Of a stretch of DNA of 64,000 nt, positions 52,312-53,726 are shown piece after piece. The stretch is from Escherichia phage MET-P1-301, in the sequence record PV700625; one strand, given 5' to 3'. A program made the translations under genes and the position numbers. Position 1 is the stretch's first letter. The number at the start of each line of letters is the position of its first letter. The notes under the pieces were generated by a model that was not told the origin of the DNA, searched no databases, and saw nothing but the letters and a program-made list of their open reading frames with translations.

Positions 52312-53726
52312 TTACCAGATATAACGGTCAATCATTACTGCTTTGAGCATTACACTGATTGGGTCAAACTTCTCACCACCAAGCAGAGCTTTTAAAGTGG
52401 CTGGAGAGAACCCTGATACCATTGCTACACCGTTATCCTTAACAGATACTTCGCAAGTACCATTACGGTTTGCTAAGTACCAGAATACCAGTTGTGGCAT
52501 CTCATATCCAGCTTTTTTGTACTTACTCTGAATTGCTTCAAAGTTTGTACGACCATTAGCCCCGTCAACCTGATTGAACTCCATATCGGAGAAGATGATA
52601 AGCTTACTTGGCATATCTTTCTGAGTCAAGTTGTTTCTTTTACCTGTCTCAAGAATGCGGTCAAAAGCTGCTTGTAAGTTAGTTGAACCATATTCAACGT
52701 GTCGCATCACCTGACGATGACGGTTTCGTAAATCACCACTCAGTTCAATGAAGTGAGGGTTTGTTGAATAAACCATTAACTCATTCTTAAAGCAGCCTGT
52801 ATTGCGTTCTGCTACATACAAGGCAAGTGATACACCAATATCAAGAGCAGTAATGGAGCCAAGATTCACCCAAGACATTGAGCTTGAAACATCAGTCATA
52901 CACAAGATGTTTTCACCTTCTGCCATCCAGTTTGGTAGTGCTTTCCACTGCTCATTGGCAACATCTGCATTACCATGCTTGATAGACTTAATCACATCGT
53001 ATGGGTAAACAGCACCAGCGTTAATCTTAGTCTCACCTTTTGATAAGGACTCAATGTAAGCTTTGTAACGTTCTCCATCCTTACGGTTAAACAGTTTTTG
53101 GTAACGTGCAGCAGCAAGTGAAGGAACCTTACTGTAGTCAATCTTGCCAAACTCATTGGCAGAGATTTTTGCTCAACTGTATCAGATAGTGAAGATAACA
53201 GTGTTCGGTACTCTTTCTCGCTCAAGTTGGCAAACTTGCAGAAACGTTTTACAAACTGCTTATGACGTGGTTTGACTCGTGGTAACCACTTAGCCGCCAA
53301 ACCTGCTGTTGCAGGGTCTAGTAATGCTGCTTCTAAGTGTTTAAAGGCATCTGTCTCGAAACGAGTACCCACGAAGATTTTGAAGTCATCAAAACGACCA
53401 AGTTCTGCAATCTTATCCATAATGCGAAGAACCTGTGCAGGCTCTAAAACTTTGTCTTCAATTGCTTGAAGCAAAACAGTTCTGAAGGCTTTACGCTCAC
53501 CCATACCTTCTCGTACATCTCGCATATGAAGCAAAATACGAACTGCAACATCAACATCCTCACGCAAAGCTTTGTAGAACAGGTCTGGTAAGATTTCTAC
53601 GTTGCTACGGCTTGAACCAGCAGCTTTGTAAAAGTCTACAAGAGCAGACATTGATGAAGTATGGTTTACAGCACCATTTTCAGTTCGACCTGCATGAAGG
53701 TGCGCATGTTTAAATAATTCGCTCAT
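52312..53726 (-). CDS. vWA-domain protein with MIDAS motif (possibly Ro60/TROVE-like; apparently frameshifted)
   Basis: C-terminal ORF has DxSxS (CMTDVSSSMSW) and vWA-like beta-alpha pattern; N-terminal helical ORF joins it across a T5 run near 53166; about 500 aa total. Confidence 0.55.

What the first reader, a model, noticed from the sequence alone, without database searches (positions are those of the whole stretch)
52312..53726. vWA/MIDAS protein gene next to the tRNA cluster: possible RNA-binding partner
About 500-aa protein (after correcting one homopolymer frameshift) with a helical N-terminal region and a C-terminal vWA fold carrying a DxSxS MIDAS motif (DVSSS). Ro60/Rsr proteins have this helical-plus-vWA architecture and are typically encoded beside tRNA-like Y RNAs. 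The gene lies about 160 bp from the tRNA cluster that holds the permuted tRNA-like module and other structured non-tRNA elements. The Ro60 assignment is a hypothesis; other vWA families are possible.
Basis: inference. Interest (0 to 1): 0.65.

Follow-up and report, generated by a model that had tools for sequence, protein, structure and literature searches.

The report
Phage Ro60-like protein with partner RNAs
This gene encodes a ring-shaped, Ro60-like protein of a Felix-O1-type coliphage whose near-identical relative is already known to defeat a bacterial defence nuclease, and beside it lie small conserved RNAs, resembling both bacterial Y RNAs and the enigmatic Class I RNAs of social amoebae, that are probably its RNA partners.

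Summary
Two ORFs at 52312-53726 (-) join into one 471-aa protein if one A is restored in an A5 run (53166-53170). The window lacks one base in about 20 homopolymers compared with phage wV8, so the break is most likely a sequencing artefact. The window is a Felixounavirus. The protein is 98% identical to wV8 gp47 and to Bas63 gp130, which a 2024 preprint reported as Ro60-like and as a counter to the Ppl defence nuclease.

The new result is four RNA elements, 0.3-1.2 kb downstream on the same strand inside the tRNA cluster. Each has the form AG-stem / UACAGCAA / variable region / stem-CUG, and one carries a permuted tRNA-like domain. The same element sits a median 155 nt from DUF2828 genes in 52 of 82 distant phage loci. 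Some copies hit Rfam YrlA below threshold. The short copies resemble Dictyostelium Class I RNAs. RNA binding is inferred, not shown.

The parts
52312..53726 (-). Gene for a 471-aa Ro60-fold protein (DUF2828 + DUF7788/vWA). It is the orthologue of wV8 gp47 and Bas63 gp130. In this window it is split into two ORFs by a 1-nt homopolymer deletion.
53166..53170 (-). A5 run in the gene (T5 on the + strand) where relatives have six bases. This is the site of the frameshift, after codon K187.
52879..52893 (-). MIDAS DxSxS motif (D279 V S S S283) of the vWA domain
53766..53795 (-). Sigma-70-like promoter (TTGACA-18-TAAAGT) upstream of the gene. This is a consensus match only.
52174..52293 (-). Two sigma-70-like promoters between the gene and tRNA-Pro, reading into the tRNA and RNA-element cluster. 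These are consensus matches only.
51904..51976 (-). RNA element E1: AG-stem, UACAGCAA, AU-rich variable part, stem-CUG. It lies 9 nt from tRNA-Glu and 9 nt from tRNA-Met.
   Evidence: 44.0 bits; RF01414, 19.7 bits
51744..51809 (-). RNA element E2, of the same type, between tRNA-Met and tRNA-Asn
   Evidence: (49.9 bits)
51280..51352 (-). RNA element E3, of the same type, downstream of tRNA-Asp
   Evidence: (38.3 bits)
51135..51266 (-). RNA element E4. It has the same terminal stem and UACAGCAA motif but encloses a permuted tRNA-like domain: T arm 51196-51212, closed acceptor-like hairpin 51178-51195, D-like arm 51160-51176. This is a YrlA-like layout.
   Evidence: (33.3 bits, not in the training set)
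46607..52147 (-). Cluster of 26 tRNA genes on the same strand, directly downstream of the gene

Best explanation
The locus encodes a Ro60-like ribonucleoprotein module of a Felixounavirus.

The protein is a helical-repeat ring closed by a vWA/MIDAS domain. It belongs to the very large DUF2828/DUF7788 family of phages, giant viruses and eukaryotes. It is the orthologue of Bas63 gp130, which protects phage against the Ppl defence system, a nuclease reported to act as a single-strand 3'-5' exonuclease that senses 3'-OH ends.

By analogy with Ro60, which threads single-stranded 3' ends through its central hole, I infer that the protein caps nucleic-acid 3' ends or otherwise occludes what Ppl attacks.

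The four small RNAs just downstream (E1-E4) would be transcribed with the tRNAs and probably released by tRNA processing. I infer that they are its Y-RNA-like partners. The invariant base of the terminal stem together with the single-stranded UACAGCAA would be the protein-binding site. The variable module, which is empty in E1-E3 and tRNA-like in E4, would gate the ring or tether it to other factors, as Y RNAs do.

The frameshift in this window is a sequencing artefact.

Shown here or in the literature: the fold, the orthology, the anti-Ppl phenotype of the orthologue, and the linkage and covariation of the RNA elements. Inferred: RNA binding, the end-capping mechanism and the role of the RNAs.

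For: Orthology and function: the protein is 98% identical to Bas63 gp130, which sits in the same position before tRNA-Pro. Deleting g130 sensitises Bas63 to Ppl, and gp130 rescues T7 on a Ppl strain. The Ppl mechanism is taken from a review.

RNA elements: the window pattern gives 3 hits against 0 expected. Covariance model R1 finds exactly four strong hits in 64 kb, all on the gene strand and 0.3-1.2 kb downstream. In 82 distant loci, 63 of 64 R1 hits are on the gene strand, at a median distance of 155 nt, and 52 of 82 loci have an element within 1.5 kb. Six of the 7 stem pairs show double changes. A closing stem is present at 63 motif occurrences against 15.4 expected. Subthreshold Rfam YrlA hits of 39-42 bits fall on the tRNA-like versions.

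Artefact: about 20 one-base homopolymer losses occur in 13.8 kb and interrupt 8 of 16 conserved CDSs.
Against: No TROVE Pfam hit appears even at E <= 10. The profile search against PDB sequences gives Ro60 only at E 0.95.

gp130 alone, expressed from a plasmid or from T7, counters Ppl. The anti-Ppl activity therefore does not need the phage RNAs.

The window's own elements do not hit Rfam YrlA. They lack the GNCGAA / GGUCCGA Ro60-binding motif of known Y RNAs.

The folding-energy z-scores of the elements are modest, -1.1 to -2.6.

Thirty of the 82 loci show no element under my criteria.

Neither expression of the elements nor any protein-RNA contact has been observed.
Confidence: 0.65

Rival explanations
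1. The protein is a Ro60-fold anti-Ppl factor that works purely through protein-protein or protein-DNA contacts. On this view the UACAGCAA elements are unrelated features of phage tRNA regions, such as processing or stability signals, that merely sit in the same accessory region.
For: gp130 alone rescues T7 on a Ppl strain with no phage RNA present. The elements lie between tRNAs. DUF2828 genes are near tRNA genes in all 8 lineages inspected, so the co-location could be indirect.
Against: In many loci the elements abut the DUF2828 gene itself, at 8-60 nt and either upstream or downstream, rather than the tRNAs. The strand bias is 63 to 1. The tRNA-like versions match the model for YrlA, the known partner RNA of Ro60.
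Confidence: 0.2
2. The elements are cis-regulatory parts of the DUF2828 mRNA, for example autoregulatory protein-binding sites in its UTRs, rather than free small RNAs.
For: They lie immediately upstream or downstream of the gene on the same strand.
Against: In the window, promoter-like sites and two or more tRNAs separate them from the gene. They occur in tandem arrays of up to five. Their architecture matches that of free small RNAs, namely Dictyostelium Class I RNAs and YrlA.
Confidence: 0.1
3. The gene is a genuine pseudogene in this phage, or it is decoded by programmed slippage at the A run.
For: The sequence as given has two overlapping ORFs and an A5 run at the junction.
Against: The same kind of one-base loss occurs in about 20 homopolymers nearby and breaks 8 of 16 conserved CDSs, including a tail protein gene. 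Eight relatives have an intact ORF.
Confidence: 0.04
4. The protein is a generic vWA/MIDAS adaptor, such as a MoxR-type cochaperone or a CoxE-, Ku- or TerF-like protein, with no relation to Ro60.
For: There is a weak VWA_CoxE Pfam hit at E 0.047, and many vWA-only structural hits appear.
Confidence: 0.03

Closest known systems
Bas63 (JohannRWettstein) gp130 / wV8 gp47 (RefSeq 'RNA-binding protein', PHROG 850)
   Same: It is 98% identical, also 471 aa, and sits in the same position directly upstream of tRNA-Pro. The preprint reports it as structurally Ro60-like and as a counter to Ppl.
   Different: The only difference is the apparent frameshift in this window. The preprint merely speculated that some annotated tRNAs might be Y RNAs. 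It did not identify the UACAGCAA elements.
Ro60/Rsr (TROVE + vWA) with Y RNAs, including Thermus phage phiLo Ro60 with Yrl1/Yrl2 and mycobacteriophage Ro60 with YrlA
   Same: It shares the predicted helical ring plus vWA/MIDAS fold. Candidate partner RNAs are encoded within about 1 kb on the same strand, have a terminal stem and in some cases a T-arm/D-arm tRNA-like module.
   Different: Identity is only 11-16%, and there is no TROVE Pfam match. The protein is shorter, 471 aa against about 500-540. The RNA motif is UACAGCAA rather than GNCGAA/GGUCCGA. The tested function is anti-defence, not RNA quality control.
Dictyostelium Class I RNAs (Rfam RF01414)
   Same: Both have an (A)AG start, a 6-7-bp terminal stem that keeps structure but not sequence, the motif (CC)UUACAGCAA directly after the 5' half of the stem, a variable region, a CUG(U) end and a length of about 50-70 nt. 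All eight subthreshold RF01414 hits that I saw fall exactly on these phage elements.
   Different: The scores of 19.7-30.7 bits are below the gathering score of 41.5. The phage versions can carry large inserted domains. Class I RNAs were reported as unique to dictyostelids, and their only shown direct binder is the RRM protein Rnp1A. A link to a DUF2828 protein in amoebae is untested.
Salmonella YrlA (Rfam RF02553)
   Same: The layout is T arm, closed acceptor-like hairpin and D arm inside a long terminal stem. Relatives hit at 39-42 bits, and E4 has the same predicted layout.
   Different: The hits are below the gathering score of 69. E4 itself does not hit RF02553. The partner protein belongs to a different sequence family.

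Membership tests
Ro60 / TROVE protein family | Sequence match to the TROVE domain (Pfam PF05731) | tested here: not met
   hmmscan at E <= 10 returns only DUF2828 and DUF7788. The profile search against PDB sequences finds Ro60 only at E 0.95, and only in the vWA part.
Ro60 / TROVE protein family | Helical-repeat ring plus C-terminal vWA domain (the Ro60 fold) | tested here: met
Ro60 / TROVE protein family | MIDAS motif (DxSxS...T...D) in the vWA domain | tested here: met
   D279, S281, S283, T349 and D381 are invariant in 52 homologues.
Ro60 / TROVE protein family | Binds Y RNA on the outer surface and single-stranded RNA 3' ends in the central cavity | not testable with these tools
   This needs RIP/CLIP, EMSA or a structure of the complex.
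Y RNA / YrlA | Encoded within about 4 kb of the Ro60 gene on the same strand | tested here: met
   E1-E4 lie 0.3-1.2 kb downstream on the same strand. In the distant loci the median distance is 155 nt and 63 of 64 hits are on the gene strand.
Y RNA / YrlA | Terminal stem formed by the 5' and 3' ends, supported by covariation | tested here: met
   The stem has 7 bp, and 6 pairs show double changes. The aligned set was selected for pairing, so that count is partly circular. The non-circular control gives 63 stems against 15.4 expected.
Y RNA / YrlA | Conserved Ro60-binding motif (GGUCCGA / GNCGAA N0-1 G) | tested here: not met
   The conserved motif here is UACAGCAA. The known motif is as described.
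Y RNA / YrlA | Reaches the Rfam RF02553 gathering score (69 bits) | tested here: not met
   The window gives no hit at E <= 10. Relatives score 39-42 bits, with E values of 4e-5 to 6e-6 in the multi-locus scans and down to 7e-8 in the short single-locus scans.
Dictyostelium Class I RNA (RF01414) | (A)AG start, 6-bp terminal stem, 11-nt motif next to the 5' stem, CUG(U) end | tested here: met
   The R1 consensus is aAAG-stem-uUACAGCAA...stem-CUGgua, which matches the published description and sequences. The transcript ends are not known.
Dictyostelium Class I RNA (RF01414) | Reaches the Rfam gathering score (41.5 bits) | tested here: not met
   Scores are 19.7-30.7 bits.
DUF2828 / DUF7788 (Pfam PF11443 + PF25043) | Both Pfam models matched above their gathering scores | tested here: met
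   DUF2828 scores 104.4 bits against a cut-off of 29, and DUF7788 scores 148.5 bits against 27.1.
Anti-Ppl factor (Bas63 gp130) | Orthology to the tested protein | tested here: met
   It is 462/471 identical and syntenic. The phenotype itself comes from the literature.

The most novel reading that the evidence does not exclude
DUF2828/DUF7788 proteins and the UACAGCAA stem RNAs may form a second, very widespread Ro60/Y-RNA-like ribonucleoprotein system shared by phages, giant viruses and eukaryotes. On this reading the Class I RNAs of dictyostelid amoebae, whose function is unknown and which were thought to be unique to that group, are its eukaryotic RNA component. [quoted passage not shown]
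Probability: 0.35. Interest if true: 0.9.

Novelty: new variant of a known kind. Interest (0 to 1): 0.72.

Why it matters
Ro60-Y RNA particles are a classic RNA quality-control system, and until now they were recognised only through the TROVE signature. If this reading is right, a family with about 8,900 clusters at 50% identity is a hidden branch of that system with its own RNA partners.

That would give a mechanistic handle on a newly found anti-defence function, the countering of Ppl. It would also offer a testable explanation for Dictyostelium Class I RNAs, whose function has been open for twenty years. In addition, a recurring non-tRNA component of phage tRNA clusters would become annotatable.

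Tried and rejected
- Pfam and NCBIfam scans for TROVE or any named family found only the two DUFs.
- Sequence searches of the PDB gave nothing significant.
- I tried to build a Ro60 alignment for a profile-profile comparison from an 82-aa Xenopus fragment. The search returned only exon-sized fragments, so no hhalign was run.
- A covariance model of the permuted tRNA-like domain (R2) was not discriminating. It scores junctions between adjacent tandem tRNAs higher than E4, which gets 19.5 bits.
- Folding-energy z-scores of the elements are weak and were not used as evidence.
- My first generic stem-and-motif finder had many false positives. A stricter finder and the covariance model R1 replaced it.
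- The afdb50 fold library was unavailable.
- I could not obtain any Dictyostelium or plant DUF2828 sequence, nor the family assignment of DDB_G0281243, from the papers, their supplements or the protein searches.
- Promoter and terminator scans are not enriched over shuffled sequence and are given only as annotation.

Full report
**What is at the coordinates**

The window is a Felix-O1-type coliphage of the genus Felixounavirus. The stretch 52100-53900 matches 251 phage records, the best at 97.5% identity.

The finding covers two overlapping minus-strand ORFs, 52992-53726 and 52312-52995. In an alignment with phages wV8 and fjerdesal, the window has five bases where they have six, in the homopolymer at 53166-53170. 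Restoring that base gives a 471-aa protein that is 98% identical to wV8 gp47 and to Bas63 gp130.

Eight relatives carry an intact 1416-nt CDS or match residues 1-471 without interruption.

Over the 13.8 kb that I could align with wV8, the window has lost one base in about 20 homopolymer runs, almost always from the longer run. These losses interrupt 8 of 16 conserved CDSs, including a tail protein gene. The frameshift is therefore almost certainly a sequencing or assembly artefact. It is unlikely to be a pseudogene or programmed slippage.

**The protein**

Pfam assigns the N-terminal part to DUF2828 (104 bits) and the C-terminal part to DUF7788 (148 bits). No TROVE hit appears even at E <= 10. 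PHROG 850 and RefSeq call the protein 'RNA-binding protein'.

The family is very large. It has 8,914 clusters at 50% identity with E <= 0.001.

An AlphaFold2 model built on 52 diverse homologues is confident, with pLDDT 88.9 and pTM 0.88. It shows an all-helical region followed by an alpha/beta vWA domain.

- In Foldseek against the PDB, the ten best matches are all Ro60 proteins (Xenopus, human, Deinococcus Rsr, Thermus phage phiLo), with E 1e-8 to 4e-7. All are aligned over the full length. The next matches are vWA domains alone, at E >= 1e-3.
- Among viral models, the nearest neighbours are DUF2828/DUF7788 proteins of phages and of giant viruses (Pithovirus, CroV, ChoanoV1, Marseillevirus). 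TROVE and 'Ro-like' phage proteins come next.
- The MIDAS residues D279, S281, S283, T349 and D381 are invariant in the alignment.

The protein therefore has the Ro60 fold but is not a sequence-level TROVE member.

**What was already known**

The PhageMaP preprint (PMC11482910) reports several relevant results:

- Deleting Bas63 gene 130 makes the phage sensitive to the Ppl defence system.
- gp130 expressed from a plasmid, or inserted into T7, restores T7 growth on a Ppl strain.
- gp130 is structurally similar to Ro60.
- Because the gene sits upstream of the tRNA genes, some of those genes might be Y RNAs.

A 2026 review describes Ppl as a single-strand 3'-5' exonuclease. It is activated by nucleotide depletion and by 3'-OH ends made by phage homing endonucleases.

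No partner RNA had been identified.

**The RNA elements**

I looked at distant homologues, 38-56% identical, in their genomic context. tRNA genes lie within 6.5 kb in all eight lineages inspected, and within 1 kb in six of them.

In two of these loci, the unannotated gap between the gene and the tRNAs holds hits to Rfam YrlA, the tRNA-like Y RNA of Salmonella. The hits score 42.1 and 40.9 bits, cover the full model and lie on the gene strand, but they are below the gathering score of 69. A third locus gives 39.2 bits.

Reading these gaps showed tandem elements with a common plan: 5'-AG, a stem of five or six further pairs, one or two bases, UACAGCAA, a variable part, the complementary strand ending in CU, then G. 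The variable part comes in three forms:

- short and AU-rich;
- a permuted tRNA-like domain (T arm, closed acceptor-like hairpin, D arm);
- a larger domain.

The window has four copies, all on the gene strand inside the first part of the tRNA cluster. E1 is at 51904-51976, E2 at 51744-51809, E3 at 51280-51352 and E4 at 51135-51266. E1 and E2 lie 8-11 nt from the flanking tRNAs, so tRNA processing would release them. That last point is an inference.

**Statistics for the elements**

- The window pattern AGACC-N2-5-TACAGCAA-N20-50-GGTCTGG has 3 hits against 0 expected.
- I built covariance model R1 from 28 short elements. With filters off, it finds exactly four strong hits in the 64-kb window, at 33-50 bits. 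E4 was not in the training set. The next best hit scores 20.8 bits.
- In 82 non-Felixounavirus loci (863 kb), R1 gives 64 hits at E <= 0.01, and 63 of them are on the gene strand.
- The median distance of these hits from the DUF2828 gene is 155 nt, although the flanks extend to 5 kb. Fifty-two of the 82 loci have an element within 1.5 kb.
- In the 7-bp stem, six pairs show changes on both sides. The G-C pair is invariant and the A-U pair nearly so.
- That alignment was selected for pairing, so I ran a non-circular control. Of 145 gene-strand motif occurrences, 63 have a closing stem, against 15.4 expected when the downstream sequence is shuffled.

**Resemblance to Dictyostelium Class I RNAs**

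The short elements repeatedly hit Rfam RF01414 (Dictyostelium Class I RNA) at 19.7-30.7 bits, below the gathering score of 41.5. All eight such hits that I saw fall exactly on elements next to DUF2828 genes.

Published descriptions and sequences of Class I RNAs match the phage consensus point by point:

- start AAG;
- a 6-bp terminal stem that keeps structure but not sequence;
- the motif CCUUACAGCAA directly after the 5' half of the stem;
- a variable region;
- end CUGU.

An example is DdR-21: GUUGACCUUACAGCAA...GUCAACUG.

A sequence-only profile built from the phage elements scores 16 of 20 sequences from the paper's supplement (19 dictyostelid Class I RNAs and one Arabidopsis candidate) above all 400 shuffled controls.

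[quoted passage not shown] A pull-down with DdR-21 recovered Rnp1A, GuaB, NdkC and the uncharacterised protein DDB_G0281243. From my own knowledge, Pfam describes DUF2828 as a family of eukaryotes and viruses.

I could not find out whether dictyostelids encode a DUF2828 protein, or what DDB_G0281243 is. No paper in the library links Class I RNAs with Ro60 or Y RNAs. This is therefore a lead, not a result.

**How it most likely works**

Four things are shown, either here or in the literature: the Ro60 fold, orthology to an anti-Ppl factor, tight and strand-specific linkage to a covarying RNA family, and YrlA-like tRNA mimicry in some copies.

The following is inferred. The ring binds single-stranded 3' ends, as Ro60 does, and so shields the ends that Ppl attacks. 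The E RNAs bind the protein through the conserved base of the stem and the UACAGCAA strand. Like Y RNAs, they would gate the ring or tether it to other factors.

Because gp130 alone counters Ppl, the RNAs are not needed for that activity. The main rival reading is that the RNAs are unrelated features of tRNA regions. Against it, many loci have the elements abutting the gene rather than the tRNAs.

**Verdict**

The gene itself is a known kind of thing with a published orthologue. The candidate partner RNAs and their resemblance to Class I RNAs are, as far as I could find, new. They make the locus a new variant of the Ro60/Y-RNA theme.

Noticed in passing
window 46100-59900 (for example 46422, 47442, 51047, 52207, 54143, 55351, 58856, 59410): The window has systematically lost one base in homopolymer runs of 4-6 compared with wV8. 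This breaks 8 of 16 conserved CDSs in 13.8 kb, which suggests the assembly has homopolymer errors throughout.
   Followed up: yes
window 50263-50757 (-): An HNH endonuclease gene lies between tRNA-Ile and tRNA-Met, with the motif ...CSICGYNRCIKALEFHHLDP...CANCHREVHEG. It is itself split over two frames. Homing endonucleases are reported to create the 3'-OH ends that trigger Ppl, the system countered by the neighbouring gene's orthologue.
   Followed up: partly
window 49626-49863 (-), especially 49645-49719: A tRNA-like sequence with an acceptor stem (AUGGGAC/GUCCCAU), a T arm and a GCCA tail was not called by ARAGORN. Rfam gives a weak tRNA-Sec hit of 23 bits. wV8 annotates a 'tRNA-OTHER' pseudogene near this position.
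   Followed up: no
window 49941-50186 (-): A 246-nt gap without a tRNA gives weak hits to tmRNA models (RF04321 at 20.3 bits, RF00023 at 15.7 bits). Its nature is unresolved.
   Followed up: no
window 49276-49375 (-): A long hairpin follows a terminator-like AAAGACCUUUUAGGUCUUUUU, in the gap between tRNA-Ser and tRNA-Leu. Rfam gives only a spurious microRNA hit of 29 bits.
   Followed up: no
window 53808-54180 (-): The upstream gene, the orthologue of wV8 gp46 (DUF5681), is also frameshifted here, at 54143. A DUF5681 gene also sits directly upstream of the DUF2828 gene in the distant locus L007.
   Followed up: partly
L005:1-5566 and L008:2055-4955: NAD-salvage genes (NAPRTase, PRPP-synthetase-like and, in L005 only, an NMN transporter and a NadR-like gene) lie immediately upstream of the DUF2828 gene in two 140-150-kb phages.
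   Followed up: no
L010:2510-7912 and 9523-13284: In a 127-kb phage the DUF2828 gene sits among RNA-repair and tRNA-related genes: an RNA ligase, the peptidyl-tRNA hydrolase PTH2, an ADP-ribosylglycohydrolase, NADAR and a non-specific endonuclease.
   Followed up: no
L011:194-754: A phage contig encodes a permuted tmRNA (RF04321, 122.7 bits, above the gathering score) about 7 kb upstream of its DUF2828 gene.
   Followed up: no
L008:7231-7305: A phage tRNA with a CUA anticodon, a likely amber suppressor that ARAGORN labels tRNA-Pyl, lies in the tRNA cluster that surrounds the DUF2828 gene.
   Followed up: no
L032:10696-10922: A group I intron (RF00028, 71.5 bits) lies about 4 kb downstream of the DUF2828 gene.
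   Followed up: no
Supplement of PMC7919456 (file 56): The Class I RNA study lists an Arabidopsis candidate, ath_can_1 (UGUUUUCAUUACAGCAAUC...AAGAAAACUG, Infernal score 40), which the authors dismissed. From my own knowledge, plants encode DUF2828 proteins, so this candidate may deserve another look.
   Followed up: no
L007:7438-8028: In this Ounavirinae-like relative, the gap after the gene holds a 98-nt tRNA-model hit with an insertion (7606-7703, 39.3 bits). It also holds a long-range stem, AGACUUUAAAGCAC/GUGCUUUAAAGU, that encloses about 180 nt. Neither resembles the UACAGCAA elements, which in this locus lie further downstream.
   Followed up: no
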